Notes: generated by a model not told the origin, from the sequence alone. DNA of 64,000 nucleotides from Thermoanaerobaculia bacterium (GCA_036504335.1 DASXVJ010000023.1:144389-208388); one strand, 5' to 3'; shown: positions 22,196-48,206, counted from the stretch's first letter. A program made the numbers and translations.

Positions 22196-22254
22196 CGGGC
22201 TGCGTCCTCCTCGTGCCGACGCTCCGCCCTTGCAGGCGAGCGCCGGCAGCCCTG

Positions 22255-22863
22255 ATGATAGCCGCGATGCTGGCCCGGACCTTTCTCAGCCTCGTCGAGA
22301 AGGTCACCGAGGACCTGGACGTCGAGAAGCTCCGGGCCGAGGTGCAGTCGTTCTCGGCGAAGCACGCGGACCTCACGACCCGCGAGAAGGGCGAGCGGCT
22401 CGTCGCGGTCGCCGCCCGCCGCGCGGCCGCCTTCGGCGCCGCCGCGAGCCTGCCGCCGGGATGGCTCTCGCTCGCGACCGTCGCGCCCGAGCTCTCGGCG
22501 GTCCTCGTCCTCCAGAGCCGGCTCATCGTGTCGCTCCACCTTCTTTACGGAGGCCCCATGACGCCCGAGGAGCGGGCGCTCGAGGTGCTTGCGGGGCTCG
22601 CGGCGGGGGCCGGGATGAGCGTCGGGCGGCGCCTGACGACGCGCGCGGCCGAAGAGGTCGCCGCGCGCCTCGTCGTCCGTCTCGCCGGACGCGAGCTCGC
22701 TCACGTCGTTCCGGTCCTCGGAGCGCTCGCAGGCGCGGGCCTCAACTACGTGGCCGTACGCGCCGTCGGACGCGCGGCGCTCGCGCGCATCCAGCGCCTG
22801 CACGGTCCGCCCGAGATCCCCGGGAAGGGAGCCGTTCTCGACGTTTCCGGGCGGGTCGAGTAA
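22255..22863 (+). CDS. Hypothetical protein (EcsC/DUF697-like)
   Basis: Coding-like GC3. Start trimmed to MIAAMLARTF; the N-terminal part of the track ORF is junk. Confidence 0.5.
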   Translation: MIAAMLARTFLSLVEKVTEDLDVEKLRAEVQSFSAKHADLTTREKGERLVAVAARRAAAFGAAASLPPGWLSLATVAPELSAVLVLQSRLIVSLHLLYGGPMTPEERALEVLAGLAAGAGMSVGRRLTTRAAEEVAARLVVRLAGRELAHVVPVLGALAGAGLNYVAVRAVGRAALARIQRLHGPPEIPGKGAVLDVSGRVE

Positions 22864-22960: not shown

Positions 22961-24847
22961 ATGCGGAAGGTGGTCTACAGGTCCATTCGCGGTGCGGCCA
23001 ACACCGCCTGGAACGTGTTCCAGGCCGTGAACCGCCGCGTGCCCGCGCGTTCCTTCCAGCCCTCCTGGTCGCCCGAGCCGCTCCCGAAGAGCCACGAGCG
23101 CACAAAGCCGCCTCTCGGGTTCCCGCGCCGCACGGACTCCCTCTGCCCGACCTGCACCCGGGAGGTCCGCGATGCGATCGTGGGCGGCACGCGTGAGCTC
23201 TCGGAGCTCATCGACGGTCGCCCCGGCGAGATCCCGGCCGACATCGTCCAGCGCGGCAACGAGATCTGGATGGTCAAGACGTGCCCGAAGCACGGCACGT
23301 TCGAGGACCTCATGGCGAGCGACGCGCGCTTCTTCGCACGCCTCGAAGAGAACTTCTTCGGCCGCGACGTGAGGATCGCGAAGGACAAGCTCCACGACCA
23401 CGGCTCCTCCTCGATGCGCTACGGCCGCGGCGCGGTCCTCACGGTGGACCTCACGAACCGCTGCAACATGATGTGCAACCCGTGCTTCATGGACGCCAAC
23501 CAGGTCGGCTACGTGCACGAGCTCGGGTGGGACGACGTCAAGGAGATCCTCGACAACGCCGTCTCGATCAAGCCGCAGCGCCAGATGTCCGTGCAGTTCT
23601 CGGGCGGCGAGCCCACGATCTCGCCGTTCTTCATCGAGGCCACGCGCTACGCCCGCGAGATCGGCTACTTCTCGGTCCAGTGTGCGACGAACGGAATTCG
23701 CTTCGCGCAGGAGCCGGAATTCGCGAAGGCCGCGTACGACGCGGGGCTCCGGCTCGCGTACCTCCAGTTCGACGGCGTCGGAGACGAGGCCAACGAGCAC
23801 CGCGGCGTCGGGAACCTCTACGACGTGAAGCTCCGGGCGCTCGCCAACCTCCACGCGGCGGGGATCGACGTCACGCTCGTCACGACGATCGTGAACGGCG
23901 TCAACGACGACCAGGTCGGCCCGACCCTGAAGTTCGCGATCGAGAACATCGACAAGATCAACGCCCTCTCGTTCCAGCCCGTGTCCTTCACGGGCCGCGA
24001 CGAGGAGATCGACGACGAAACGCGCACGAAGCAGCGCTATACGCTCGCCCATCTCGCGCACGACGTGAAGGACCAGGCCGGCATCGGCGAGCCGATGCGC
24101 GACTGGTTCCCGCTGTCGGCCTCGGGCCCGTTCTCGGACCTGAAAGACCTCCTCGGCGGCCTCGAGGCGCAGTGGGGCTCGCTCAAGTGCGGCTGCCACC
24201 CGAACTGCGGGATCGCGACGATGATGCTCGTGCGCCCGGACACGGGACAGGCCGTGCCCCTGACCCAGATCGTCGACGCGGACCGCCTGCTGCGCGACCT
24301 CACCGTCGTCACGGACGCCGCGCGCGGAAAGTTCCTGACGGTCCTCCAGACGGCGCTCGCTCTCGCGCGCAACATCCGTCCCGAGGGCGTTCCCCACAAC
24401 CTCGGCGTCTGGGAGACGCTCAAGGTCATGGACGGCCACACGGGCAAGGGCATGGGGATCGCGAAACAGGGCCGCTATCCGTGGCGCGTCCTCCTCGTGG
24501 CCGGGATGTGGTTCCAGGACCTCTTCAACTACGACTTCCGGCGGACGGAGATGTGCATCATTCCGTACGGAACGCAGCTCGGCGAGATCTCGTTCTGCGC
24601 GTACAACACCGGCGCGGGATGGCGGAAGATCGTCGAGGAGATGCACCAGAGCGCGACGCTCTCCGAGTGGTACAAGGACAAGGGCCGCCACCCCGTGTAC
24701 GCGCACGGCAAGCGCGTGCCGCTGCCCGCGTTCAACCCGGGGGCGCGCCCGTCGACGCTGCCGGTCTACGAGCCCGCGGCCGCCCGCACGGGCGACCTCC
24801 CGGCCGCCGCGATGCTTCCGAGCTTCGGCGCCGCTTCCGGGAAATAG
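22961..24847 (+). CDS. Radical SAM enzyme with N-terminal Zn-ribbon and C-terminal Cys/His-rich extension (function unknown)
   Basis: CNMMCNPC is a Cx3Cx2C motif in LTVDLTNRCNMMCNPCF. N-terminal CPTC...CPKHG treble-clef. C-terminal CGCHPNCG. GGAGGA Shine-Dalgarno 6 nt upstream of ATG 22961. Confidence 0.8.
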   Translation: MRKVVYRSIRGAANTAWNVFQAVNRRVPARSFQPSWSPEPLPKSHERTKPPLGFPRRTDSLCPTCTREVRDAIVGGTRELSELIDGRPGEIPADIVQRGNEIWMVKTCPKHGTFEDLMASDARFFARLEENFFGRDVRIAKDKLHDHGSSSMRYGRGAVLTVDLTNRCNMMCNPCFMDANQVGYVHELGWDDVKEILDNAVSIKPQRQMSVQFSGGEPTISPFFIEATRYAREIGYFSVQCATNGIRFAQEPEFAKAAYDAGLRLAYLQFDGVGDEANEHRGVGNLYDVKLRALANLHAAGIDVTLVTTIVNGVNDDQVGPTLKFAIENIDKINALSFQPVSFTGRDEEIDDETRTKQRYTLAHLAHDVKDQAGIGEPMRDWFPLSASGPFSDLKDLLGGLEAQWGSLKCGCHPNCGIATMMLVRPDTGQAVPLTQIVDADRLLRDLTVVTDAARGKFLTVLQTALALARNIRPEGVPHNLGVWETLKVMDGHTGKGMGIAKQGRYPWRVLLVAGMWFQDLFNYDFRRTEMCIIPYGTQLGEISFCAYNTGAGWRKIVEEMHQSATLSEWYKDKGRHPVYAHGKRVPLPAFNPGARPSTLPVYEPAAARTGDLPAAAMLPSFGAASGK

Positions 24848-24856
24848 CGCCCGGCC

Positions 24857-25642
24857 TCAGGGCGCGCGGAGAGCCGCCTCGGCGAGCGACGCGAGGCCTG
24901 CGGCCGCCTCGTCCGGCTGCTCGAGCGGAACCATGTGGCCGGCGCCCGGCACGGTCAGGAGCCTCACCCACGGCGCGTGCGCCGCGACGGCCGTCATGGC
25001 CTCCGAGTCGGCGGGCGGGGCGATCGCGTCCTCCTCGCCGACGGCGACGAGGAGAGGCCGGTCCCACGCGGAGAGAACCTCGAAGCCCTCGTCGCGCACG
25101 GCGAGGCCCGCAAGGTCGGCCATGGCCGTTTCGGGCGGCGTCGCGAGAACCATCCGAGTCACGAGGTCCTCGGCCGGCGTTCCCTTCGAGCCGTGGGCGA
25201 GGAGCTTCGGAAGCATCGCGGAGAGCACCGCCTCGATGCCGTCCTTGCGGATGGCCTCGATGGCCGCCTTCCGGCCCGCGCGTCCCGCGGTGTCGTCGGC
25301 GGAGGCCTTCGTGTCGAAGAGAGCGAGGCCACGGAGGCGGCCCTGAAAGCGCGCGCCGTGTCGCTTGATGAGCTCGAAGCAGACGTAGCCGCCCATCGAG
25401 AGCCCCGCGAGGAGGAAGGGCGCGTCGGCCGGCAGCGCCGCTCCGAGGTCGCGCGCGACGTCGTCCGCGAGGAGCGACATCGCGTGCGTGGCGGCGGCGG
25501 GATGCGGCGACCGCCCGCGCCCGCGCAGGTCCGGGGCGAAGACGGACGTGATCGGGCCGAGCCGGCCGTCCGCGGCCCGTTCGGCGAGCGGGTTCCACAT
25601 GCGCCGGTCGAGGGGGTAGCCGTGGAGCGCGACGAGGTGCAT
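24857..25642 (-). CDS. Alpha/beta hydrolase
   Basis: Nucleophile elbow GLSMGG; HGYP oxyanion region. Confidence 0.75.
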   Translation of the reverse strand: MHLVALHGYPLDRRMWNPLAERAADGRLGPITSVFAPDLRGRGRSPHPAAATHAMSLLADDVARDLGAALPADAPFLLAGLSMGGYVCFELIKRHGARFQGRLRGLALFDTKASADDTAGRAGRKAAIEAIRKDGIEAVLSAMLPKLLAHGSKGTPAEDLVTRMVLATPPETAMADLAGLAVRDEGFEVLSAWDRPLLVAVGEEDAIAPPADSEAMTAVAAHAPWVRLLTVPGAGHMVPLEQPDEAAAGLASLAEAALRAP

Positions 25643-25652
25643 GGCGGCCATC

Positions 25653-27110
25653 TTAGCGGCCGGCGGCGGGCACGACCCGCCACTCCGCGTCGCCGGCGTT
25701 TCCGGCCGGCCGTGTCCTCTCCTTCACGAAGGCGTAAACGGCCGTCTCGCGAATACGCTCGACGTCGGCGATCGGCTCACGGAAGAGGATCGGCAGGCCT
25801 GGGCTCGCCGCGAGAGCGTCCACGAGCCGCTCGTTGCCGCGGTCGCGCCTCAGGCAGTACCAGAAGGACGGGTTCACGTAGAAGCGGCCGGGTGCGCCCG
25901 TGCCGGTGAGAGGGTAGAGGTTCTGCAGCGCGCCGTGGACGAGAAGCGTGCCTCCGGCGGGAACGCGCTCTCTCACGAGCGCCGCGGCGGCCCGGCTCGC
26001 CGAGTCGTCCCAGTAGAAGACGGGCCCACCGGCCCGGTCGAGGAGCAACGGCCCCGCGCCGAGCGCGGCGACGGCGAGGAAGACGGCACACGCTGCGGCG
26101 CCGCCGGCGGCCCCGAAAAGGCGAAGAGGTCCGCCCCGGCCTTTCCGGAGCCGGCGGAAGACGACGGGCAGAACGAGGGCGAGCCGGGCGGCCGCGAGCG
26201 CGCCGAGCCCCGTCAGGGCCGCGAGGTGCAGGAGGCCGGGACGCGGCCAGGCCATCCCGACTGCGCCGAGCGCGACCGCCGCGAGCGGCGAGCGCAGACG
26301 GCGCGCCGGCAGCGCCGCGGCAGAGAGGCCGAGCGCGGCGAACGGCACGAAGAGCACGAGCGCCTCGTGCGCGTCCGCCCCGGTGAGCCGGACGGCGATC
26401 TCCCGCGACATCCCGGAGAAGACGGGGTAGATCAGCGTCCAGGCGAGGTGCCGAGTCGTCCGGAACGCAAGGGCCCACGAGAGCGCGAAGCCGAGGTAGG
26501 GAAGAGCGGCCGCTGCGCCGAAGAGAAGCGCGGCGCGCCGCCGGCCGCGCAGAGCGACCCACAGGAGCGCGGCGAGCGCCGCCCACGCCGAGGTCTGTTT
26601 GACGAGGATCCCGGCGCCGAAGACGAGGCCCGCGGCCGCGACGTCGCCGAGCGCACCGGTGCGTTCGTGGCGCTCCAGGAGGAGGACGCCCGCGAGAAGG
26701 AGGGGCGCGAGGAACGGCTCGGGCCAGATCGCGGGACCTTCCGCGTAGACGGTCAGGAGCGCGAGGACGGGGACGCCGAGCGCGAGCGCGGCCCGCGGGC
26801 CCGATCGTGCTCGGCGGTGCGGGCGCGTGCCGAGCACGACGAGGCCGCCCGCCGCCGCCAGCGAGAGGGCCGGGATCGCGCGCAGGACGTTCGGGGTGAA
26901 GCCGAACAGGGCGCCGGCGGCGGCCGTCAGGAGAATCAGGAGAGGCGTGTGCGGAAAGAGGATCCCGTCATAGAGCCTGACGCCGCGCGTCACGAACCAC
27001 GCGGGCGTGACGATCTCCGGCCAGGCCGTGACCGACACGACGAACGGGAGCGCACCCGCGAGAAGGGCCGCGAGCGCGGCGATCGGGGCGGCCGCGCGCG
27101 CCCCTCTCAC
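25653..27110 (-). CDS. Polytopic membrane protein, GT-C-like glycosyltransferase/DUF2029-like
   Basis: Roughly 12 predicted TM helices. GTG start overlaps the stop of the upstream gene (GTGA). Confidence 0.6.
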   Translation of the reverse strand: MRGARAAAPIAALAALLAGALPFVVSVTAWPEIVTPAWFVTRGVRLYDGILFPHTPLLILLTAAAGALFGFTPNVLRAIPALSLAAAGGLVVLGTRPHRRARSGPRAALALGVPVLALLTVYAEGPAIWPEPFLAPLLLAGVLLLERHERTGALGDVAAAGLVFGAGILVKQTSAWAALAALLWVALRGRRRAALLFGAAAALPYLGFALSWALAFRTTRHLAWTLIYPVFSGMSREIAVRLTGADAHEALVLFVPFAALGLSAAALPARRLRSPLAAVALGAVGMAWPRPGLLHLAALTGLGALAAARLALVLPVVFRRLRKGRGGPLRLFGAAGGAAACAVFLAVAALGAGPLLLDRAGGPVFYWDDSASRAAAALVRERVPAGGTLLVHGALQNLYPLTGTGAPGRFYVNPSFWYCLRRDRGNERLVDALAASPGLPILFREPIADVERIRETAVYAFVKERTRPAGNAGDAEWRVVPAAGR

Positions 27111-27484
27111 TCGGGCCGGTACGTCACGCTGTTGCGCGGGCCCTCCCAGACCGTGACCTCTTCGAGCCGCGCGCCGTCCCCGAGGAGCGCCGCCTTCCCG
27201 ATCTCGTCCGCGACCCAGAGCGCGACGTTCTCGGCGCTCGCATTCCTGCGGTCGAACGGCGGCACGGTGTTGAGGTCGCGGTTGTGGAGGCGCGAGGCGA
27301 GCTCTCTGACGAACGCTTCCGTCGGCACGAAGTCGACGGCGAGGCCGTACGGGCCGAGGCGATCGACCGAGAGCGCGACCTCGATCTTCCAGGAGTGGCC
27401 GTGCACGGGCTCGGGGCCGCCGACGTAATCCACGAGATGGTGCGCGGCCTCGAAAGTCGCGTGGCAGCGGACGGTCCAGCGCAT
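27107..27484 (-). CDS. 6-pyruvoyl-tetrahydropterin synthase family protein (QueD-like, catalytic Cys not conserved)
   Basis: FEAAHHL...PVHGHSWKIEV is the PTPS Zn-binding HGH motif. The Cys normally 4 residues before HGH is Pro (GGPEPVHGH). Confidence 0.75.
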   Translation of the reverse strand: MRWTVRCHATFEAAHHLVDYVGGPEPVHGHSWKIEVALSVDRLGPYGLAVDFVPTEAFVRELASRLHNRDLNTVPPFDRRNASAENVALWVADEIGKAALLGDGARLEEVTVWEGPRNSVTYRPE

Positions 27485-27518
27485 GGCCGCCAGTCTACGA
27501 CGCGTGGAACGGCCGCGC

Positions 27519-29174
27519 TCAAACGGTTTCGAGGTAGCGGTGCACGACGCCGACGGCGCCGGAGCCCTCGCCGACGGCCGCGGCGACTCTCTTGCCCGAG
27601 CCCGCGCGCACGTCGCCGGCGGCGAACACTCCCGGAACGCTCGACTCGAAGAGGAACGGGTCCCTCTCGAGCGTCCAGCCGCGGGGCCGCCGGCCCAGGG
27701 GCGTCAGATCGGGCCCGGTCACGACGAAGCCCGCCTCGTCGATCTCGAGGAACCCGGCGACCATCTCGGTCTGCGGCCTTGCACCGATGAAGATGAACAT
27801 CGCCGCCGCGTCGAGCTCGCGCTCGTCCCCCCCGGCGAGGCGGCGGACGACGATCTTCTCGAGCCGGCCGTCGCCCCGAACTGCGCTCACTTCGACGCCC
27901 GGCACGACGTCGATGTTCGGCGTCGCCTCGATCCGGTCGATCAGGTAGCGGGACATCGACTTGGCGAGGGAGTCCGCGCGGACGAGCATCGTGACGCGGC
28001 GCGCGTAGCGGGAGAAGAAGAGGGCTCCCTGGCCGGCCGAGTTCCCCGCGCCGACGACGCACACGTCCCGGCCACGATAGGTCGCGGCCTCGGTCATCGC
28101 CGCACCGTAGTAGACGCCGATCCCGAGGAGCGCCTCGGAGCCGGACGTCTCCAGCTTCCGCACGGCGACGCCTGTGGCCAGGACGACGGCGTAGCAGCTC
28201 ACGTCGGTCCCGTCGGCGAGCCGGGCGACGCGATACGGGTCCTCGCGGCGCAGGCTGACGACCTCCTGGGCGATCACCTCGGCGCCGAAGCGCCGCGCCT
28301 GGGTCGTGGCGCGGCGGGCGAGGTCGGCCCCGGATACGCCCGACGGGAAGCCGAGGTAGTTCTCGATCCTCGAGCTGGTGCCGGCCTGGCCGCCGGGCGC
28401 GCTCTGCTCGACGAGGGCCGTGCGCAGCCCCTCCGACGCTCCGTAGACCGCCGCGGCGAGGCCCGCCGGGCCTCCGCCGACGATCAGCAGGTCGTAGAAA
28501 GGCAGGCGCGCCTTCGTCTGCATCCCGGTCTTCTCCGCGAGCTCGCGGCTCGTCGGAGCGGCCAGGAACGTGCCGTCCGGGAAGAGGACGACGGGGAGCT
28601 TCGTCTCGGCGCCGAACGAGCGGATCAGCTCCCGGGTCGACGGGTCCTGGTCGACGTCGATCCACTGGTAGGGGATCTGGTTGCTCGACAGGAATTCCTT
28701 CACCGCGAAGCTGCGAGGCGACGACTGCGCGCCCGCGACCCGGATCCCTTCGTAGGGAAGGCGCACGTGCGCCGTCCAGTCGGACAGCAGGTCGTCGAGG
28801 ACCGGGTAGAGCCGCTCGGCGGGAGGGTCCCAGGGCTTCAGCAGGTAGTGATCCAGTCCGACGTCGTTGATGCCGGAGATCGCGGCCTGCGTGTCCGCGT
28901 ACGCCGTGAGGAGGACCCGGCGCGACTCGGGGTGAAGCTTGATCGCCTCGCGCAGGAATTCCGTGCCCGACATCATCGGCATCCGCTCGTCGGCGAGGAA
29001 GAGCGCGACCGGAGTTCCGCGCTGCTTGAGCTGGCGGGCGGCCTCGAGCGCTTCGCCCCCGGACACGGCCTTCAGGATGCGGTAGTCGCTCCGGTAGTGC
29101 TGCTTGAGGTCGCGCTCAATGGCGCCGAGCACCTCGGGGTCGTCGTCGACCGTCAGGATCACCGGTTTGGCCAT
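27519..29174 (-). CDS. Response regulator: REC domain fused to a Cys-less glutaredoxin-like linker and a thioredoxin-reductase-like FAD/NAD(P) oxidoreductase lacking the CxxC
   Basis: N-terminal REC (ILTVDDDPEVL...FLADERMPMMSG...LKP). Then GGGPAGLAAAVY (FAD GxGxxG) and VVGAGNSA (NAD). The TrxR CATC position reads YYGAAMTEAA. Confidence 0.8.
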   Translation of the reverse strand: MAKPVILTVDDDPEVLGAIERDLKQHYRSDYRILKAVSGGEALEAARQLKQRGTPVALFLADERMPMMSGTEFLREAIKLHPESRRVLLTAYADTQAAISGINDVGLDHYLLKPWDPPAERLYPVLDDLLSDWTAHVRLPYEGIRVAGAQSSPRSFAVKEFLSSNQIPYQWIDVDQDPSTRELIRSFGAETKLPVVLFPDGTFLAAPTSRELAEKTGMQTKARLPFYDLLIVGGGPAGLAAAVYGASEGLRTALVEQSAPGGQAGTSSRIENYLGFPSGVSGADLARRATTQARRFGAEVIAQEVVSLRREDPYRVARLADGTDVSCYAVVLATGVAVRKLETSGSEALLGIGVYYGAAMTEAATYRGRDVCVVGAGNSAGQGALFFSRYARRVTMLVRADSLAKSMSRYLIDRIEATPNIDVVPGVEVSAVRGDGRLEKIVVRRLAGGDERELDAAAMFIFIGARPQTEMVAGFLEIDEAGFVVTGPDLTPLGRRPRGWTLERDPFLFESSVPGVFAAGDVRAGSGKRVAAAVGEGSGAVGVVHRYLETV

Positions 29175-29177
29175 CCC

Positions 29178-30572
29178 TCAGCCCTTTCCTGCGTCGAGAG
29201 GGAGCGTCACGCGGAACTCGGTGCTCCCGGGGCGCGAGTCGGCCTCGATCTCTCCCTGGTGTTTGCGGACGATGCGCCGCGCGATGTCGAGGCCGAGGCC
29301 GGTGCCCTGGCCGACCGGCTTCGTCGTGAAGAACGGATCGAAGATGCGCTCCCGGATCTCCGGGGGCAATCCAGGCCCGTCGTCGACGACGCGCACGACG
29401 ACGGACGGGCCCTGGCGCGCCGCCGAGACGTCGACGCGGCCCTTGGCCGCGTCGAGCGCGTTGTCGACGAGATTCGCCCACACCTGGTTGAGCTCGCCCC
29501 CGAATCCCGGGATGCGCGGGAGGTCGGCCGGGGCGTCGAGGCTCACGCTCACGGACTTGCCGCGGGCCTTCGCGTTCAGCACGGCGAGCGTGTCGGCCAG
29601 CCCCTGGCGGACGTCCACCGGTTTGGGCATGGTGGCCTGGTCCATGTACGTGAAGCCCTTCACCGCCGCGACGAGATTGTGGATCTTCGTCGCGGAGGCC
29701 TCGATCTCGGACGCCAGCCGGTACGTCCCGCAGCCGGCCACGAGCCAGGGGAGGGTCGCCCGGAGAGCCTCGGCGTCGAGCGCCCCGGCGAGCTCGTCGA
29801 GGGATTCGAGAGTGACCGCGGACTCCGCGAGCGCCTCGGCGGCGGTGACGTCGGCGCCGTGACGCGAGAGCCAGCCGGCGAGGGCGTCTTCACGATCCGC
29901 CTGCTCGATGGGAGAGCGCCCGAACGTCGCGCCGGCCGCGAGCTGGCAGAGATTGCGCGCCCGGTCCACCGAGGCCCGCTGGGCCTCGGTGAGGCGGGCG
30001 GCGCCGAGCGCGCGGGACGCCGTTTCGAGCTCCGACAGCCCGAGCCGGAGTCCCTTGGCGCTCCGGGCGACCGCCGACGCCGGGTTATTCAGCTCGTGCG
30101 CGAGCCCCGCCGCCAGCTTGCCGAGGGAGGACATCCTTTCTTCGTGAAGGTCGCTCGACGTGAACTGGCGGGCGCGGTCGACCATGACGTGCACGAAGAT
30201 CGCGGTGAGGTCGTAGCAGTCGCGAATCAGCTCGGGGATCTCCTTGCGCGGGATCACGAGGATTTCCGTCGGCGCCTCGGCCTTCACGTCGCCCGGCGAC
30301 CCGGCGAGACGCGAGTACGGCAGGACGCCGCTCACGTCACCGCCGCGCCACTCCATGACCTTGTGGGGCCCGGCGCCCCGGTCGACGTAAATCGACAGGT
30401 GGCCCGAGAGGATGATGTAGAGACCCAGCACCGCATTGCCCTTGGCCGAGAGGACGTCTCCGGTCTCCAGCTTGACGAGGTGGCCGCGGGCGGCGAGCCA
30501 GGCGAGCTGGTCGGAAGGGGCGCCGGCGAGCAGCCGGTGCGCGGACAGACGATCGAGGATCGAACTCTCCAT
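29178..30572 (-). CDS. Cytoplasmic sensor histidine kinase with N-terminal cyclic-nucleotide-binding (CAP-like) domain
   Basis: H-box GLAHELNNP, N-box NLVDNALDA, G1 VVDDGPGLP, G2 GTGLGLDI. N-terminal roughly 120 aa has a cNMP-binding fold. No TM segment. Confidence 0.85.
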   Translation of the reverse strand: MESSILDRLSAHRLLAGAPSDQLAWLAARGHLVKLETGDVLSAKGNAVLGLYIILSGHLSIYVDRGAGPHKVMEWRGGDVSGVLPYSRLAGSPGDVKAEAPTEILVIPRKEIPELIRDCYDLTAIFVHVMVDRARQFTSSDLHEERMSSLGKLAAGLAHELNNPASAVARSAKGLRLGLSELETASRALGAARLTEAQRASVDRARNLCQLAAGATFGRSPIEQADREDALAGWLSRHGADVTAAEALAESAVTLESLDELAGALDAEALRATLPWLVAGCGTYRLASEIEASATKIHNLVAAVKGFTYMDQATMPKPVDVRQGLADTLAVLNAKARGKSVSVSLDAPADLPRIPGFGGELNQVWANLVDNALDAAKGRVDVSAARQGPSVVVRVVDDGPGLPPEIRERIFDPFFTTKPVGQGTGLGLDIARRIVRKHQGEIEADSRPGSTEFRVTLPLDAGKG

Positions 30573-30581
30573 GGTGAGAGT

Positions 30582-33227
30582 TTATGCGCCGAGGACGGTT
30601 TCGAGCCGCGTCACGCGCACGGCGTGCTGGCCCTCGGGCGGGACGCCGTATTCTTTCTCGAGGAATTTCTTCGGCGTCGTGGCGGTCGCTCCCATGAGCG
30701 AGAGGCGCTCTTCGCGCGTCTCGCCGTTCGGAAGCGTAAACGCGTAAACGGCCTCCGTCACGGCCCTTCCGAGCGACTTCGCGCCCTTCGGGAGCTCGAC
30801 AGAGGACGTGATCACGAGGCCCGGAGGGAGCCGGTCGTTCACGGCGGAGACGTGGGCGTCCGTCAGCGCGTCGAGGACGTCCACGTCGAAGAGCTCGTGT
30901 TTCGACTCGTGCCCGAGCGGAAGGGCCGGACCCATCGACAGGCGCAGGTGCGGGTTGTAGCCCTCCGTGTAACGCACGGGCGCGCCCGAGGCGCGCAACG
31001 CGCGCTCGAGGACGTCCATCGTGTTGCGGTGCGAGAGGTACCGCGCGTCGCCGAGCTTCTCGAACGAGAGGCGGTACGTCCGCGCGGACTCCGGCACGGG
31101 AGCCGCGACGCCGCTCGCGGGCGAGCGGCGCTCACGCAGCGGGAGAAGATCCGGCGTCGACTTCATGCGGTATGCCGCGCCCTTGGCTTTTTCGGTATAG
31201 GCGGAGGGGAGGGGAAAAGACTCTTCTGCTGAAGAAGAAGAGGGGAGAAGAGTTTCTTCGAGTGATTGTGAGGGCGATGCGCCCGCGCCCTGCGCAGGCG
31301 CGACGGGCAACGCCCCGCCGCCGAGGCTGCCTCTCTTACCTTCTAAGAAATCCGAATCCGAATCCGAAGCAAAATTGAATTCCTTCGGCAGCGGATTCGC
31401 GAGGACGATGTCCTCGCCGTTGCCCGGGACGCCGCAGGCGTAGCAGTGCCCCCACTTGCAGTCGTCCGTGTGCATCTCCTTGAGCGCCTTCTTCCACTCC
31501 ACGACGAGGAAGGGCTTGCGGATGGACGCGTCGACGACGTCCCAGGGGAGCGTCTCCTTGAGGTCCTTGTCGCGGAGGTGGCGGAACTTCGGGACGCCTG
31601 CGGCCTCGAGCGCCTCCGTCCAGCGCTCCCACGAGAAGTGCTCGCTCCACGCGTCGAAGCGTCCGCCCCTCTTCCACACGTCGAGGACGGCGCGGCCCAT
31701 CCGCCGGTCGCCGAGCGAGAGCATCGCCTCGATCTCGGCTTCCTTCGGCTCGTGCCACGTCATCTTCGCTCCCTTGACGGAGCGGAAACGGTCCTTCAGG
31801 TACGCGATCTTCCGCGAGAGGTTCTCGACGCCGTCGAACCCGAACCACTGGAAAGGCGTGAAGCTCTTCGGGATGAAGCAGCCGACCGAGACGTTCACCT
31901 GCGGTCTCACGCCGTGCCTGCGGCCCTGGGCGAGGATGTCCTTCACGAGCGTCACGAGCTCGTCGAGGTCCGGGTCGGTCTCCGTCGGGAGGCCGATCAT
32001 CGTGTAGACCTTGATCATGTCCCAGCCGCGCCCGAAGGCGACGTCGGCGGCCTGGACCATGTCGGCGTTCGTGAACGTCTTGTTGATGACGCGGCGGAGG
32101 CGGTCCGAGCCGGTTTCGGGCGCGAACGTGAAGCCGGACTTGCGCACCTCCGAGACGGCATCCGCGAGCGCGACGGAGAAGGCTTCGGCGCGGAGCGAGG
32201 GGAGGGAGATCGACACCTTCGTCTTCGCGAGCTCGGGCGCGAGGCACGCGACGAGCGGCTCGATCTGCGAGTAGTCCGCCGAGGAGAGCGAGAGGAGCCC
32301 GACCTCGCTCCAGCCCGCCTCGTCGATGAACGCCTTCGTCGCCTTCGCGACGTCGGCGGGGTCCAGCTCGCGCACGGGGCGGTACCAGTAGCCCGCCTGG
32401 CAGAACCGGCAACCCTGCGTGCAGCCGCGCATGATCTCGAGGCCGAGGCGGTCCTGGACGATGTCCACGGACGGGACCATGGGCTTTGCGGGATAGACGT
32501 CGGCCGAGAGCTTCTCCACCCAGACCCGCTTGACCTCTGCGGGAACTCCAGCCGTGTTCGGCGCGTACGCGGCGACACGATCCTCGTCATACGTCACGTC
32601 GTAGAGCGACGGGACGTAGATCCCCGGGCAGGCGGAGAACGCGAGGAGGCGCTCGCGGCGGGGGAGGCCCTTCGTCCGCGCGACGGCCCCGAGGAAAACG
32701 GGCAGCGCTTCCTCCGCGTCGCCGATCAAAAAGGCGTCGAAGAAATCGGCGAGGGGTTCGGGATTCGCGACGCAGGGGCCGCCGCCGATCACGACGGGGT
32801 GCGCGTCGCCGCGGTCCGCCGCGAGGACGGGGATCCCCGCGAGGTCGAGCATGTTCGGGACGTTCGTGTAGTTCATCTCGCTCTGGAGCGAGAGGCCGAA
32901 GACGTCGAAATCGCCCACGGGGGCGAAGGACTCGACGGAGAAGAGCGGGACCTTCTCCCGGCGCAGGACCGCCTCGAAGTCCGTCCACGGCGCGTACGTC
33001 CGCTCGCAGGCCCAGGCCGCGCGGCGGTTCACGATCTCATAGAGGATCTTCGTGCCCGTGTGGCTCATCCCGATCTCGTACGCGTCCGGGAAGCCGAGGC
33101 AGACCGTGACGTCCATCGCGCCGAGATCCTTGCGCACGACGTTCCGCTCCAGGCCGAGATAGCGCCCGGGGCGCTCGACGGCGAGGAGGAACGGCTCGAA
33201 GCGGGGGCGGACGGATGCGTAGCGCAA
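30582..33227 (-). CDS. Fused B12-binding radical SAM protein (TIGR03960-like) and DUF2344/TIGR03936-like C-terminal domain
   Basis: B12-binding N-terminus followed by a CxxxCxxC-type motif (CTQGCRFCQAGYWYRP). Ser/Asp/Glu-rich low-complexity linker. C-terminal DUF2344-like roughly 230 aa. TTG start at 33227 gives LRYASVRPRFEPFLLAVERPGRYLG, matching family N-termini; the upstream 290 aa of the track ORF are junk. Confidence 0.8.
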   Translation of the reverse strand: MRYASVRPRFEPFLLAVERPGRYLGLERNVVRKDLGAMDVTVCLGFPDAYEIGMSHTGTKILYEIVNRRAAWACERTYAPWTDFEAVLRREKVPLFSVESFAPVGDFDVFGLSLQSEMNYTNVPNMLDLAGIPVLAADRGDAHPVVIGGGPCVANPEPLADFFDAFLIGDAEEALPVFLGAVARTKGLPRRERLLAFSACPGIYVPSLYDVTYDEDRVAAYAPNTAGVPAEVKRVWVEKLSADVYPAKPMVPSVDIVQDRLGLEIMRGCTQGCRFCQAGYWYRPVRELDPADVAKATKAFIDEAGWSEVGLLSLSSADYSQIEPLVACLAPELAKTKVSISLPSLRAEAFSVALADAVSEVRKSGFTFAPETGSDRLRRVINKTFTNADMVQAADVAFGRGWDMIKVYTMIGLPTETDPDLDELVTLVKDILAQGRRHGVRPQVNVSVGCFIPKSFTPFQWFGFDGVENLSRKIAYLKDRFRSVKGAKMTWHEPKEAEIEAMLSLGDRRMGRAVLDVWKRGGRFDAWSEHFSWERWTEALEAAGVPKFRHLRDKDLKETLPWDVVDASIRKPFLVVEWKKALKEMHTDDCKWGHCYACGVPGNGEDIVLANPLPKEFNFASDSDSDFLEGKRGSLGGGALPVAPAQGAGASPSQSLEETLLPSSSSAEESFPLPSAYTEKAKGAAYRMKSTPDLLPLRERRSPASGVAAPVPESARTYRLSFEKLGDARYLSHRNTMDVLERALRASGAPVRYTEGYNPHLRLSMGPALPLGHESKHELFDVDVLDALTDAHVSAVNDRLPPGLVITSSVELPKGAKSLGRAVTEAVYAFTLPNGETREERLSLMGATATTPKKFLEKEYGVPPEGQHAVRVTRLETVLGA
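31333..31350. repeat. Copy (18/19) of the low-GC CTCTT(C)ACCTTCTAAGAAA motif
   Basis: ctcttaccttctaagaaa; encodes DFLEGKRG on the minus strand. Confidence 0.5.
31351..31368. repeat. Tandem hexamer (TCCGAA)x3 in the inter-domain linker, encoding SDSDSD
   Basis: Direct reading tccgaatccgaatccgaa. Confidence 0.6.
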
Positions 33228-33286
33228 GCGGGCTCTCCGAACGGGGCAGTCTAGCGGATCACCTGAGACGCTGTCGCGTGGCCGCG

Positions 33287-33919
33287 TCAGGCCGTCTTCA
33301 GGCCGACCGGGCAGGACACGCCCGTGCCGCCGATCCCGCAGTAGCCGTCGGGGTTCTTCGCGAGGTACTGCTGGTGATACTCCTCGGCGTAGTAGAAGGG
33401 CGGAGCGTCGAGGATTTCGGTCGTGATCGCGCCGTAGCCGGCCTCGGCGAGCTTCGCCGCGTACGCGGCCTTCGACGCCTCGGCGGCGGCCTTCTGCTGC
33501 GCGTCGAACGTGTAGATCCCGGAGCGGTACTGCGTGCCGGCGTCGTTGCCCTGGCGCATGCCCTGCGTCGGGTCGTGGCTCTCCCAGAAGATCCTCAGAA
33601 GACTCTCGTACGAGACCTGCGCCGGGTCGAAGGCGACGAGGACGACTTCGTTGTGACCCGTGCGTCCCGTGCACACCTCGCGATACGTCGGGTTCGGCGT
33701 GAGGCCCGCCGCGTACCCCGCCGCCGTCGTGAAGACGCCGGGCGTCTGCCAGAACTTTCTCTCCGCGCCCCAGAAGCAGCCGAGGCCGAAGAGCGCGATC
33801 TTCGTCCCGGCGGGGAACGGCGGCTCGAGCGGGTGCCCGTTGACGAAGTGCTTCGCCGGGACGGCCATCTTCTCCGCGCGTCCGGGGAGCGCATCTTCGG
33901 GGGTCGGCATGCGGAGCAT
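33287..33919 (-). CDS. msrA: Peptide-methionine (S)-S-oxide reductase
   Basis: GLGCFWGAE active site. Start trimmed to [14 protein letters not shown] to align with MsrA N-termini. Confidence 0.9.
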
Positions 33920-34014
33920 CTTTCCGGCGTAGAGCAAGGCCGTCGATTCTGCTCCTCGCGCGCGCGAAGGGGAAGATCCCCCCTCCGGCAAAACCGAACG
34001 TCCCGTTTCCCGCA

Positions 34015-34043
34015 TTGACTCGCCCCGGTGCTCGGCCTAGATT
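34015..34043 (+). promoter_or_regulatory. Sigma-70-type promoter, leaderless arrangement
   Basis: TTGACT (34015-20), 17-nt spacer, TAGATT (34038-43), then 8 nt to ATG 34052. Same geometry and the same -10 hexamer as the clpB promoter. Confidence 0.45.
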
Positions 34044-34051
34044 GCCGACCG

Positions 34052-34441
34052 ATGGCGCTCGACGAGAAACTCCGCGCGTATCTCCGCGAGCTCGGAGCCG
34101 CACTGAACGAGGCCGTGTCCTCGTCCGACAAGGTGCACGAGATTCTCGCGAAGGTGAAGAGCGAGGGCTACGGCGCGTATCTCTGTCTCGACGCGACCGT
34201 CGCGCTCGACAAGCGCGGGCGCCGCTCGTCGGCCGCGCTCCCGTCGATCCGCCGCGGCGGCCTCAACGCGTCGAAGGAAGAGCGGGAAGCGGGCGGCATG
34301 GATACGGCCGTCTTCCAGATCAACGTGAAGGACCTCGGCTTCCTGCGCTCCGTCGGAATCGACCCGACGCGCCCGGTCCGCGCGCGCCGGAATCCGCAGG
34401 CGGCCGTCACGATCCGGTCGACGGTCGCGAAACGCGGCTGA
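34052..34441 (+). CDS. Hypothetical protein (129 aa)
   Basis: High GC3 coding signature. Stop abuts the rlmN start. Confidence 0.45.
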   Translation: MALDEKLRAYLRELGAALNEAVSSSDKVHEILAKVKSEGYGAYLCLDATVALDKRGRRSSAALPSIRRGGLNASKEEREAGGMDTAVFQINVKDLGFLRSVGIDPTRPVRARRNPQAAVTIRSTVAKRG

Positions 34442-47632: not shown

Positions 47633-47670
47633 GCGCCGAGTCTATCGGCCCGCGCCCTTCGTCGGCAGCC

Positions 47671-48178: not shown

Positions 48179-48206
48179 AATTTAGACTAAGTCTAAAGAA
48201 TGTCAA
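48179..48206 (-). promoter_or_regulatory. dps promoter (TTGACA-N16-TAAATT) overlapping a perfect 17-bp palindrome operator candidate
   Basis: Minus strand: TTGACA (48201-06) and TAAATT (48179-84). Palindrome TTTAGACT-A-AGTCTAAA at 48181-48197. GGAGG Shine-Dalgarno at 48167-71. Confidence 0.45.

What the first reader, a model, noticed from the sequence alone, without database searches (positions are those of the whole stretch)
24857..33227. Long minus-strand operon of uncharacterised enzymes with a convergent Zn-ribbon radical-SAM gene
Six genes are separated by 34 nt or less, or overlap (GTGA overlap at 27107-27110; a single 1-nt gap, 25652, between the GT-C stop and the hydrolase start). In transcription order they are a fused B12-rSAM::DUF2344 protein, the cNMP-binding HK, the REC-flavoprotein, a PTPS/QueD-like protein, a GT-C-type polytopic membrane protein and an alpha/beta hydrolase. 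A 628-aa radical-SAM enzyme (22961..24847) ends 10 bp from the operon's 3' end. The TIGR03960/TIGR03936-type pair is a widespread family with no assigned function. Co-transcription with a signalling pair and with pterin/glycosyl/hydrolase-type enzymes points to a regulated small-molecule or lipid modification pathway.
Basis: inference. Interest (0 to 1): 0.6.

Follow-up and report, generated by a model that had tools for sequence, protein, structure and literature searches.

The report
Mosaic gene run, not one pathway
The six tightly packed genes are real, but comparison with about 160 related loci shows they are three unrelated modules that happen to lie next to each other in a few Thermoanaerobaculia genomes, so this is an ordinary gene run and not a new pathway operon.

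Summary
Coordinates, spacings and domain calls are all correct. The window comes from a public, already annotated Thermoanaerobaculia (Acidobacteriota) MAG.

The interpretation as one regulated small-molecule or lipid pathway is not supported. Across 80 genome loci and 80 metagenome loci, only one link holds throughout the class: TIGR03960::TIGR03936 radical SAM followed by the PTPS-like gene. Even that junction is repeatedly split by insertions.

- **PTPS-like gene:** it carries the ExxHGH signature of PTPS-III, the folate FolB-bypass enzyme, and lacks the QueD cysteine.
- **Kinase and REC-flavoprotein:** they form a self-contained, class-wide two-component pair. In other genomes the pair sits at unrelated loci. 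Its thioredoxin-reductase-like domain lacks the CxxC motif.
- **GT-C and hydrolase:** these are lineage-restricted and dispensable. GT-C homologues elsewhere sit in unrelated contexts.
- **Radical SAM pair in other phyla:** in five Bacillota and Actinomycetota replicons it lies among housekeeping genes (RNase E/G, L21, Obg, rodA, L19), never next to a PTPS gene.
- **Convergent radical SAM:** it is a bacterial homologue of archaeal tetraether synthase (Tes/GDGT-MAS) that lacks the N-terminal auxiliary cluster. It belongs to the neighbouring conserved block.

A conserved -10-like TAGACT hexamer 7 nt upstream of the PTPS start codon suggests an internal promoter. Interest is low.

The parts
33287..33991 (-). 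msrA (peptide methionine sulfoxide reductase). It is the upstream co-directional neighbour, 59 nt from the radical SAM gene. Its start codon is uncertain.
   Evidence: PMSR 207 bits and TIGR00401 221 bits. msrA followed by the radical SAM gene is conserved in the closest clade.
33248..33253 (-). TAGACT, a -10-like hexamer 20 nt upstream of the radical SAM TTG start codon.
   Evidence: The same hexamer lies upstream of the radical SAM gene in 16 related loci.
30582..33227 (-). Fused TIGR03960 B12-binding radical SAM :: low-complexity linker of about 110 aa :: TIGR03936/DUF2344. An orphan family.
   Evidence: 680 and 117 bits, both above the cutoffs. CTQGCRFC = CX3CX2C. Orthologues at 57-89% identity in 80 Acidobacteriota species.
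29178..30572 (-). Cytoplasmic sensor histidine kinase with an N-terminal cNMP-binding domain, an H-box (AHELNNP) and HATPase_c.
   Evidence: It always lies directly upstream of the REC-flavoprotein gene, including at unrelated loci.
27519..29174 (-). Response regulator: REC, then a Cys-less glutaredoxin-like stretch, then a thioredoxin-reductase-like flavoprotein without CxxC.
   Evidence: TIGR01292 scores 232 bits, below its 343 cutoff. The TrxR CAIC aligns to GAAM. More than 120 homologues of 551 aa at 78% identity or more.
27492..27497 (-). TAGACT hexamer 7 nt upstream of the PTPS ATG. It is a candidate -10 element for a leaderless transcript. It also lies inside a relic (GCGTCGTAGACTG) of the ancestral radical SAM stop-codon junction.
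   Evidence: It is found at 6-8 nt from the PTPS start in 19 loci. It is retained in L002, L006 and L015, where it no longer serves as a stop codon.
27107..27484 (-). PTPS-fold (COG0720) protein with the ExxHGH motif. Predicted PTPS-III type, a 6-hydroxymethyl-7,8-dihydropterin synthase (folate FolB bypass).
   Evidence: PF01242 93 bits. The GGPEPxHGHS motif is invariant in the 8 representative orthologues aligned. In the 71-sequence alignment most of its positions are at least 97% conserved and the first Gly at least 80%. The best solved match, PH0634, also has ExxHGH. Motif definitions come from PMC5041015, PMC5445326 and PMC2229834.
25653..27110 (-). GT-C / GT39-like polytopic membrane protein. 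Lineage-restricted and fast-evolving.
   Evidence: PMT_2 28.5 bits. Hydrophobic segments. Only 67 homologues found, 43-100% identical. Present in about 12 of 80 loci.
24857..25651 (-). Alpha/beta-fold hydrolase with GLSMG nucleophile elbow. Generic.
   Evidence: Abhydrolase_6 and Abhydrolase_1. Only sub-threshold NCBIfam hits. Present in about 25 of 80 loci.
22961..24847 (+). Convergent radical SAM, a bacterial homologue of archaeal tetraether synthase Tes / GDGT-MAS (MJ0619).
   Evidence: 7TOL E = 8e-68 over residues 90-571. NF045702 scores 327 bits, below its 450 cutoff. All 12 Cys are invariant in 30 orthologues. The N-terminal auxiliary-cluster Cys are absent.
22213..22863 (+). EcsC-like protein directly upstream of the Tes homologue on the same strand. 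Part of the neighbouring conserved block.
   Evidence: Syntenic with Tes in about 35 loci.

Best explanation
The 8.4-kb run is a lineage-specific mosaic of three functionally independent modules. Insertions at gene junctions packed them head to tail. It does not encode one pathway.

**Module 1, conserved across the class.** This is the orphan housekeeping radical SAM TIGR03960::TIGR03936 together with the next gene, a PTPS-fold protein with the PTPS-III signature. PTPS-III is predicted to make 6-hydroxymethyl-dihydropterin for folate synthesis.

**Module 2.** This is an autonomous two-component pair. A cytoplasmic cNMP-binding histidine kinase phosphorylates a REC domain, and the REC domain controls a thioredoxin-reductase-like flavoprotein that has lost its redox cysteines. 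The pair sits elsewhere in most related genomes. In the window's lineage it landed in the last codons of the radical SAM gene.

**Module 3.** This is a dispensable GT39-like membrane glycosyltransferase plus a generic alpha/beta hydrolase.

The convergent gene is a bacterial Tes/GDGT-MAS homologue. It belongs to the adjacent conserved block, and the DNA between it and the PTPS gene is a variable-cargo zone.

What is shown: gene content, synteny patterns and motif states. What is inferred: the enzyme activities and the transcription units. I infer that the radical SAM, kinase and regulator genes are co-transcribed. I infer that the PTPS, GT-C and hydrolase genes are also driven by a conserved TAGACT -10-like element.
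For: **Synteny.** Among 80 species-level loci with radical SAM orthologues at 57-89% identity, 70 hold both the radical SAM and the PTPS gene. In 55 of these the PTPS gene is the next called gene, usually at -4 to +20 nt. In 80 soil-metagenome loci, 46 of the 64 with enough upstream sequence show the same junction. Most of the remainder have 0.5-2.2 kb inserted there, or an antisense S9 peptidase gene.

**Patchy distribution of the other genes.** The kinase/regulator pair is present in only 6 of the 80 loci, and it follows the hydrolase in L007. GT-C is present in about 12 loci and the hydrolase in about 25, all within the close clade.

**Kinase/regulator pair elsewhere.** Two genomes lack the pair at this locus, those of L058 and L079. 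There the regulator is 81-83% identical, has the cNMP kinase 1 nt upstream, and lies about 130-350 kb away next to unrelated genes.

**Insertion relic.** The sequence GCGTCGTAGACTG upstream of the PTPS gene is identical to the radical SAM stop-codon junction of relatives that lack the insertion.

**GT-C homologues.** Those at 43-53% identity sit beside MFS and polysaccharide genes, era/ybeY, or UDG and a peptidase.

**Variable cargo.** Between the PTPS gene and Tes, other loci carry a SpoIIE phosphatase, an MFS transporter, a glyoxalase or other genes.

**Other phyla.** The radical SAM pair is followed by RNase E/G and L21 in Acetoanaerobium and Nonomuraea. It is followed by L21-L27-Obg in Collinsella, by L19-LepB-YlqF in Ruminococcus and by PfkA in Monoglobus. 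None has a PTPS gene nearby.

**PTPS motif.** It has ExxHGH and not CxxxHGH.

**TAGACT.** All 5 window hits and 60 of 80 locus hits lie within 100 nt upstream of a same-strand start. The reverse-complement control gives 10%.
Against: - There are no transcript data, so all six genes could still be read as one mRNA in this organism.
- The loci are related, so the TAGACT counts are not independent. The hexamer could also be partly a relic of the stop-codon context.
- The direction of change (gain or loss of the kinase/regulator pair, GT-C and hydrolase) is inferred from a patchy distribution on a simple distance clustering.
- The PTPS-III assignment rests on a signature motif only. The Asp-His pair of QueD/PTPS is not conserved here, and absence of folB could not be checked.
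- The class-wide radical SAM to PTPS adjacency may reflect a real functional link that I cannot exclude.
Confidence: 0.75

Rival explanations
1. The six genes form one co-regulated operon for a small-molecule or lipid modification pathway. The kinase and REC-flavoprotein regulate the radical SAM, pterin-type, glycosyl and hydrolase enzymes.
For: - The spacing is tight and there are no terminator-like sites between the genes.
- The identical six-gene order occurs in L002 and L090 and partly in L038.
Against: - The order exists only in a handful of close relatives. Sister genomes at 86-92% identity lack the kinase/regulator pair, GT-C or both.
- The kinase/regulator pair and GT-C occur in unrelated contexts elsewhere.
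- The radical SAM pair has housekeeping neighbours in other phyla.
- A conserved promoter-like element lies upstream of the PTPS gene.
Confidence: 0.07
2. The orphan radical SAM TIGR03960::TIGR03936 and the PTPS-fold protein are a true functional pair, analogous to QueD and QueE. The T-fold enzyme would make or hold a pterin or 7-deazapurine-type substrate for the B12-radical SAM.
For: - The adjacency is conserved across the whole class despite heavy rearrangement around it.
- The gaps are often -4 to +20 nt.
- QueD and QueE set a precedent for a T-fold plus radical SAM pairing (established knowledge).
Against: - No PTPS gene lies next to TIGR03960 in five genomes from two other phyla.
- The junction tolerates insertions, including an antisense gene, so co-transcription is not required.
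- The ExxHGH motif points to the ordinary folate enzyme.
Confidence: 0.12
3. The Tes homologue, GT-C and hydrolase together form a membrane-lipid module: synthesis of a membrane-spanning lipid followed by head-group glycosylation or remodelling.
For: - Tes/GDGT-MAS homology.
- GT-C enzymes act on lipid-linked donors at the membrane (established knowledge).
- The three genes are neighbours in about 10 loci.
Against: - Tes is on the opposite strand and convergent.
- L012, L022 and L090 keep GT-C and the hydrolase without Tes, and many loci keep Tes without either.
- More distant GT-C homologues are not near Tes.
Confidence: 0.04
4. The MJ0619-family radical SAM acts on the PTPS-III product, 6-hydroxymethyl-dihydropterin, as in the original 'HMPTM' annotation. 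That would make this a methylated-pterin locus.
For: - PTPS-III and the MJ0619 homologue are syntenic in about 40 loci and immediate neighbours in L019, L025 and L026.
- The Pfam and UniProt naming (HMPTM) reflects the older proposal.
Against: - Lloyd et al. could not reproduce pterin methylation. They showed lipid binding and biphytanyl formation by MJ0619 (PMC9433317).
- The two genes are convergent.
- The distant clade keeps the PTPS gene without Tes.
Confidence: 0.02

Closest known systems
TIGR03960 / TIGR03936 (Radical_SAM_N2 + Radical_SAM + DUF2344), a widespread orphan B12-binding radical SAM pair
   Same: Both models score well above their cutoffs. The CX3CX2C motif is present. The two parts are fused here and adjacent in other phyla.
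   Different: Here they are fused through a low-complexity linker of about 110 aa. The gene is followed by a PTPS-III-like gene, whereas the other phyla sampled have RNase E/G, L21, L27 and Obg there.
PTPS-III (COG0720 subfamily), 6-hydroxymethyl-7,8-dihydropterin synthase that bypasses FolB. Examples: P. falciparum PTPS, P. furiosus PF1278.
   Same: The ExxHGH signature with Glu in place of the catalytic Cys. The three Zn-binding His residues. A size of about 125 aa. The closest solved structure, PH0634, has the same motif.
   Different: The positions aligned with Asp70-His71 of E. coli QueD are His-Asn and are not conserved within the clade. PGAP names relatives '6-carboxytetrahydropterin synthase'. 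Activity and absence of folB are untested.
Tetraether lipid synthase Tes / GDGT-MAS (MJ0619, PDB 7TOL)
   Same: Homology along the full length (E = 8e-68). The rubredoxin-like CX2C...CX2H is present. The radical SAM CX3CX2C is present. The C-terminal Cys residues, and a Met aligned in the region of the labile Met439 ligand, are present. Bacterial homologues in Acidobacteria are already reported and proposed for brGDGT-type lipids (PMC8941075).
   Different: It lacks Cys73, Cys77 and Cys80 of the N-terminal auxiliary [4Fe-4S] cluster, which align to HDHGSSSM. It scores 327 bits against the 450-bit equivalog cutoff. Its substrate in bacteria is unknown.
Low-molecular-weight thioredoxin reductase (TrxB) and TrxR-like flavoproteins
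   Same: FAD and NAD(P)-binding Rossmann domains align along their whole length with TrxR structures (4ZN0, E = 3e-47).
   Different: The redox-active CxxC is replaced by GAAM. The protein carries an N-terminal REC domain and a Cys-less glutaredoxin-like stretch. It scores below the TIGR01292 cutoff. It is therefore not a thioredoxin reductase.
QueD-QueE (T-fold enzyme plus radical SAM in 7-deazaguanine synthesis)
   Same: A COG0720 protein encoded next to a radical SAM enzyme.
   Different: The COG0720 protein lacks the QueD CxxxHGH motif and scores 54 bits against the 89-bit TIGR03367 cutoff. The radical SAM is TIGR03960, not QueE.

Membership tests
Single conserved pathway operon | The gene set and its order are conserved together across related genomes | tested here: not met
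   The full order is found only in L002 and L090, and partly in L038. Only the radical SAM to PTPS link is class-wide. The kinase/regulator pair occurs in 6 of 80 loci, GT-C in about 12 and the hydrolase in about 25.
Single conserved pathway operon | Co-transcription from one promoter | not testable with these tools
   Short gaps and no terminators are compatible with read-through. A conserved TAGACT lies 7 nt upstream of the PTPS ATG. RNA data are needed.
TIGR03960 / TIGR03936 | HMM scores above the curated cutoffs | tested here: met
   680.2 against 462.3, and 116.9 against 71.9.
TIGR03960 / TIGR03936 | Radical SAM CX3CX2C motif | tested here: met
   CTQGCRFC in the translation. Radical_SAM Pfam hit at residues 264-427.
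PTPS-III (folate FolB bypass) | ExxHGH signature with Glu replacing the catalytic Cys | tested here: met
   E25-P-V-H28-G-H30. E25, H28, G29 and H30 are invariant in the 8 representative orthologues and lie in the conserved block of the 71-sequence alignment. The motif is defined in PMC5041015 and PMC5445326, and Glu-38 is essential in PfPTPS.
PTPS-III (folate FolB bypass) | The genome lacks folB, and the enzyme makes 6-hydroxymethyl-dihydropterin | not testable with these tools
   Only a 64-kb window is available and no assay is possible.
QueD (PTPS-I) | CxxxHGH motif and TIGR03367 score above its cutoff | tested here: not met
   Pro occupies the Cys position. The score is 54 bits against a cutoff of 89.25.
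Tes / GDGT-MAS | Equivalog HMM score above its cutoff | tested here: not met
   NF045702 scores 326.7 bits against 450. Homology itself is clear: 7TOL E = 8e-68.
Tes / GDGT-MAS | Rubredoxin-like CX2C...CX2H and radical SAM CX3CX2C | tested here: met
   C62, C65, C108 and H111, plus C168, C172 and C175. All are invariant in 30 orthologues.
Tes / GDGT-MAS | N-terminal auxiliary [4Fe-4S] cluster ligated by C73, C77, C80 and a His | tested here: not met
   The aligned segment is HDHGSSSM with a 5-residue deletion and contains no Cys. Ligands are taken from PMC9433317.
Tes / GDGT-MAS | C-terminal cluster with a labile Met ligand | tested here: inconclusive
   The Met in GMWFQD aligns with CMHFMD. 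C416, C532 and C546 align with Cys of MJ0619. The full ligand list was not available in the text I read.
Two-component system | Kinase with H-box and ATPase, a REC domain with acidic pocket, and the two genes paired | tested here: met
   AHELNNP plus HATPase_c. REC has DDD near the N-terminus and a Response_reg hit. The genes are adjacent (1-3 nt apart) in four different genomic contexts.
Thioredoxin reductase | Redox-active CxxC, and TIGR01292 score above its cutoff | tested here: not met
   CAIC of 4ZN0 aligns to GAAM. The score is 232 bits against a cutoff of 343.
GT-C / GT39 glycosyltransferase | PMT_2 domain in a polytopic membrane protein | tested here: met
   28.5 bits against 26.1, which is marginal. 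About 10-12 hydrophobic segments lie within residues 1-360. PGAP names it 'glycosyltransferase family 39 protein'.

The most novel reading that the evidence does not exclude
The class-wide pairing of the orphan TIGR03960::TIGR03936 radical SAM with a PTPS-fold (ExxHGH) protein reflects a shared pterin- or deazapurine-related function. That would give the first substrate clue for a radical SAM family that is widespread in bacteria and has no assigned role. In this reading the two-component flavoprotein pair was recruited into the unit in the window's lineage.
Probability: 0.1. Interest if true: 0.6.

Novelty: new member of a known kind. Interest (0 to 1): 0.2.

Why it matters
This finding matters mainly as a caution. 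Tight spacing and shared orientation in a compact, high-GC genome do not by themselves indicate a pathway.

Three by-products may be useful:
- The COG0720 gene, which PGAP labels QueD-like, carries the PTPS-III folate signature. This is a likely misannotation across Thermoanaerobaculia.
- This class carries a conserved Tes/GDGT-MAS homologue that lacks one of the three Fe-S clusters. That is relevant to the open question of which bacteria and enzymes make membrane-spanning (brGDGT-type) lipids.
- The orphan TIGR03960/TIGR03936 pair keeps company with RNA-processing and ribosome genes in other phyla and with rlmN here. That is a more promising functional lead than the lipid or small-molecule idea.

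Tried and rejected
- **Protein search with the PTPS protein.** The 120 listed hits were all at least 73% identical, so they gave no context outside the class.
- **Metagenome scan with a PTPS alignment.** It again returned only the same class.
- **Literature searches.** Searches for TIGR03960, TIGR03936, DUF2344, PF10105, PF19864 and COG5011 found nothing relevant.
- **Profile search of DUF2344 against PDB sequences.** Nothing scored below E = 0.1. TIGR03960 has only a weak match, to 9CCB.
- **AlphaFold2 on the DUF2344 domain without an alignment.** Mean pLDDT was 41.6, which is unusable, so I ran no fold search. Alignments from loci are not accepted by that tool.
- **Papers not held.** Phillips 2012 (PMC3262898) and Pribat 2009 (PMC2698474) were unavailable. 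I took the motif definitions from PMC5041015, PMC5445326 and PMC2229834.
- **A conserved promoter upstream of the kinase gene: rejected.** The window has TAAACT 6 nt upstream of the kinase ATG. L002 and L006 have no such hexamer and only a 3-nt gap there.
- **TAGACT as a pure stop-codon relic: rejected.** The hexamer is also found upstream of the radical SAM gene, rlmN and two other window genes.
- **A Biopython neighbour-joining tree.** It timed out, so I used average-linkage clustering on p-distances.

Full report
**1. Observation**

The window has 70% GC. In transcription order they are:
- 30582-33227, an 881-aa fusion of TIGR03960 and TIGR03936/DUF2344, scoring 680 and 117 bits, both above the cutoffs
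- 29178-30572, a histidine kinase with cNMP_binding and HATPase_c
- 27519-29174, a protein with REC, a glutaredoxin-like stretch and a Pyr_redox_2 domain
- 27107-27484, a PTPS-fold protein
- 25653-27110, a polytopic protein with a marginal PMT_2 hit
- 24857-25651, an alpha/beta hydrolase

The gaps are 9, 3, 34, -4 (GTGA) and 1 nt. The convergent 628-aa radical SAM gene (22961-24847) stops 9 nt before the hydrolase stop codon. No terminator-like sites, Rfam families or tRNAs lie within the run.

The window comes from a public Thermoanaerobaculia MAG that PGAP has already annotated. The GT-C and REC-flavoprotein sequences have 100% identical NCBI entries, named 'glycosyltransferase family 39 protein' and 'FAD-dependent oxidoreductase'.

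**2. Synteny**

A scan of one genome per species returned 80 loci around orthologues of the radical SAM fusion. The orthologues are 57-89% identical, and almost all records are titled Thermoanaerobaculia, Holophagales or unclassified Acidobacteriota. I mapped every window protein onto these loci and clustered all called proteins.
- **Radical SAM to PTPS.** This is the only link present throughout. Seventy loci hold both genes. In 55 of them the PTPS gene is the next called gene, typically -4 to +20 nt away.
- **Kinase and regulator.** They occur in six loci only. In L002, L006, L015 and L038 they are placed as in the window. In L007 they follow the hydrolase.
- **GT-C and hydrolase.** GT-C occurs in about 12 loci and the hydrolase in about 25, all in the close clade. 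Sister genomes at 86-92% identity differ in which of these genes they carry.
- **Metagenome loci.** A second set of 80 loci was retrieved with a PTPS alignment. It shows the radical SAM C-terminus directly upstream of the PTPS gene in 46 of the 64 loci with enough upstream sequence. Most of the others still have the radical SAM gene upstream but separated by 0.5-2.2 kb, in some cases by an S9 peptidase gene on the opposite strand.

The junction is therefore a recurrent insertion site, and co-transcription of the two genes is not required.

**3. The kinase/regulator pair is autonomous**

Homologues of the REC-flavoprotein are very conserved. The 120 best are 78% identical or more, and nearly all are 551 aa long. 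Two genomes lack the pair at the radical SAM locus. The regulator is nonetheless on the same contigs as L058 and L079, about 130 and 350 kb away.

In both cases a cNMP-binding kinase gene ends 1 nt upstream of the regulator gene. The neighbours are unrelated genes: AsmA and a Ser/Thr kinase in one case, and cytochrome oxidase and a P-type ATPase in the other.

In the window, the 34-nt spacer upstream of the PTPS gene contains GCGTCGTAGACTG. This is identical to the radical SAM stop-codon junction of relatives without the pair. The pair therefore entered within the last codons of the radical SAM gene.

The flavoprotein is not a thioredoxin reductase. The CxxC of solved TrxRs aligns to GAAM, and the TIGR01292 score is below its cutoff.

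**4. GT-C and hydrolase**

The GT-C family is tiny, with 67 proteins found at 43-100% identity. Three members at 43-53% identity lie in unrelated neighbourhoods:
- one next to MFS and sugar-nucleotide genes, in the same MAG whose radical SAM locus (L020) lacks GT-C
- one after ybeY and era
- one between UDG and an M24 peptidase

The space between the PTPS gene and Tes carries different cargo in different species, including a SpoIIE phosphatase, an MFS transporter and a glyoxalase.

**5. The PTPS-like protein**

It keeps the three Zn-binding His residues and has GGPEPxHGHS, which contains ExxHGH. This motif is invariant in the 8 representative orthologues aligned. In the 71-sequence alignment most of its positions are at least 97% conserved. 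The protein lacks the QueD CxxxHGH cysteine.

ExxHGH is the published signature of PTPS-III, the enzyme that makes 6-hydroxymethyl-7,8-dihydropterin and replaces FolB (PMC5041015, PMC5445326). In the Plasmodium enzyme this Glu is required for that product (PMC2229834). The closest solved structure, PH0634, has the same motif.

The gene is most simply read as a folate housekeeping gene that is mislabelled as QueD-like. One caveat is that the residues aligned with QueD Asp70-His71 are not conserved.

**6. The radical SAM pair elsewhere**

A tblastn search of the plasmid collection found five orthologues on large replicons of Bacillota and Actinomycetota. Their neighbours are:
- mreC-mrdA-rodA upstream and rplU-rpmA-obg downstream in Collinsella
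- rplS-lepB-ylqF-rnhB in Ruminococcus
- pfkA in Monoglobus
- RNase E/G, L21, Prp and Obg in Acetoanaerobium
- rodA upstream and RNase E/G downstream in Nonomuraea

None has a COG0720 gene nearby. In this class, rlmN lies divergently upstream in most loci. These are housekeeping contexts centred on RNA and the ribosome, and they point away from a lipid or small-molecule role. I found no paper on the family and no solved relative of DUF2344. A single-sequence structure prediction of DUF2344 failed.

**7. The convergent radical SAM**

It is a clear homologue of GDGT-MAS/Tes (7TOL, E = 8e-68; NF045702 327 bits, below the 450 cutoff). MJ0619 was once annotated as a hydroxymethylpterin methylase, which explains the Pfam name Zn_ribbon_HMPTM. 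It was later shown to be the tetraether lipid synthase (PMC9433317).

The window protein keeps the rubredoxin-like CX2C...CX2H, the radical SAM motif, and the C-terminal Cys residues plus a Met aligned in the region of Met439. [quoted passage not shown]

Bacterial Tes homologues in Acidobacteria are already published, with a proposed role in brGDGT formation (PMC8941075). The gene belongs to the neighbouring syntenic block (EcsC-like, Tes, cyclophilin, APH, M48 peptidase). It is absent from L012, L022 and L090, which keep GT-C and the hydrolase.

**8. Transcription signals**

TAGACT occurs five times in the window, and every occurrence lies within 70 nt upstream of a same-strand gene start. 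Across the 80 loci, 60 of its 80 occurrences lie within 100 nt upstream of a same-strand start, mostly 6-8 or about 20 nt away. The reverse complement gives 10%. The loci are related, so these counts are not independent.

The hexamer lies 7 nt upstream of the PTPS ATG in the window. It is retained there in L002, L006 and L015, where it no longer serves as the radical SAM stop codon. This fits a -10 element driving a leaderless PTPS transcript. No comparable conserved element precedes the kinase gene.

My inference is that the radical SAM, kinase and regulator genes are read together, and that the PTPS, GT-C and hydrolase genes have an additional promoter of their own.

**9. Verdict**

The layout is real but ordinary. 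It is a lineage-specific juxtaposition of three modules: a housekeeping radical SAM with a probable folate enzyme, an autonomous two-component pair, and dispensable membrane and hydrolase genes. A known kind of Tes homologue lies next door.

The pathway interpretation is not supported. The remaining open point is the class-wide adjacency of the radical SAM and PTPS genes. I rate a real functional link there at about 10%.

Noticed in passing
window 27492-27497, 33248-33253, 47639-47644, 48183-48188, 48190-48195: All five TAGACT hexamers in the window lie upstream of a same-strand gene start, at 6-7, 20, 30 or 66 nt. Related TAnnnT hexamers (TAGAAT, TAAACT) are similarly enriched upstream of starts in the 80 related loci. 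This suggests a -10 consensus of the form TA(G/A)A(C/A)T and frequent leaderless mRNAs in this class.
   Followed up: partly
window 30885-31415 approx. (residues about 605-715 of the radical SAM fusion): A Ser/Ala/Pro/Gly-rich low-complexity linker of about 110 aa joins TIGR03960 to DUF2344. The length of the fusion varies from 823 to 927 aa among orthologues. In L037 and L040 my crude ORF calls split the two parts into separate ORFs, as they are in other phyla.
   Followed up: no
L013, L018-L020, L023, L029-L031, L034, L044, L060 (upstream of the radical SAM gene, opposite strand): In the mid-distance clade, a squalene/phytoene synthase gene (SQS_PSY, 231 bits) and an FAD-binding oxidoreductase gene lie just upstream of the radical SAM gene. 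A DAO-type FAD oxidoreductase sits directly beside the Tes homologue. These are isoprenoid- or lipid-type genes near Tes that the window itself lacks.
   Followed up: partly
L041-L080 (distant clade), directly upstream of the radical SAM gene, same strand: A PLP-dependent threonine-synthase-like protein with an N-terminal Cys-rich Zn-ribbon-like motif (PALP, 259 bits) precedes the radical SAM fusion in about 27 loci. In the window's clade msrA occupies that position.
   Followed up: no
window 27483-31232 (+) and 30582-34103 (-): Very long ORFs (1249 aa antisense, and a 1173-aa upstream extension of the radical SAM ORF) are artefacts of the 70% GC content. Their third-position GC and the overlap with msrA show that they are not genes.
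   Followed up: yes
window 34028-34441 (+) and its homologues in 60 loci: A conserved small protein of about 125-135 aa with no Pfam match lies immediately upstream of rlmN on the same strand across the whole class.
   Followed up: no
window 22961-24847 (+): The Tes/GDGT-MAS homologue has 12 Cys residues, all invariant in 30 orthologues. They include a CGCHPNC cluster (C410, C412, C416) where MJ0619 has a single aligned Cys. The metal-site layout may therefore differ from the archaeal enzyme beyond the loss of the N-terminal cluster.
   Followed up: partly
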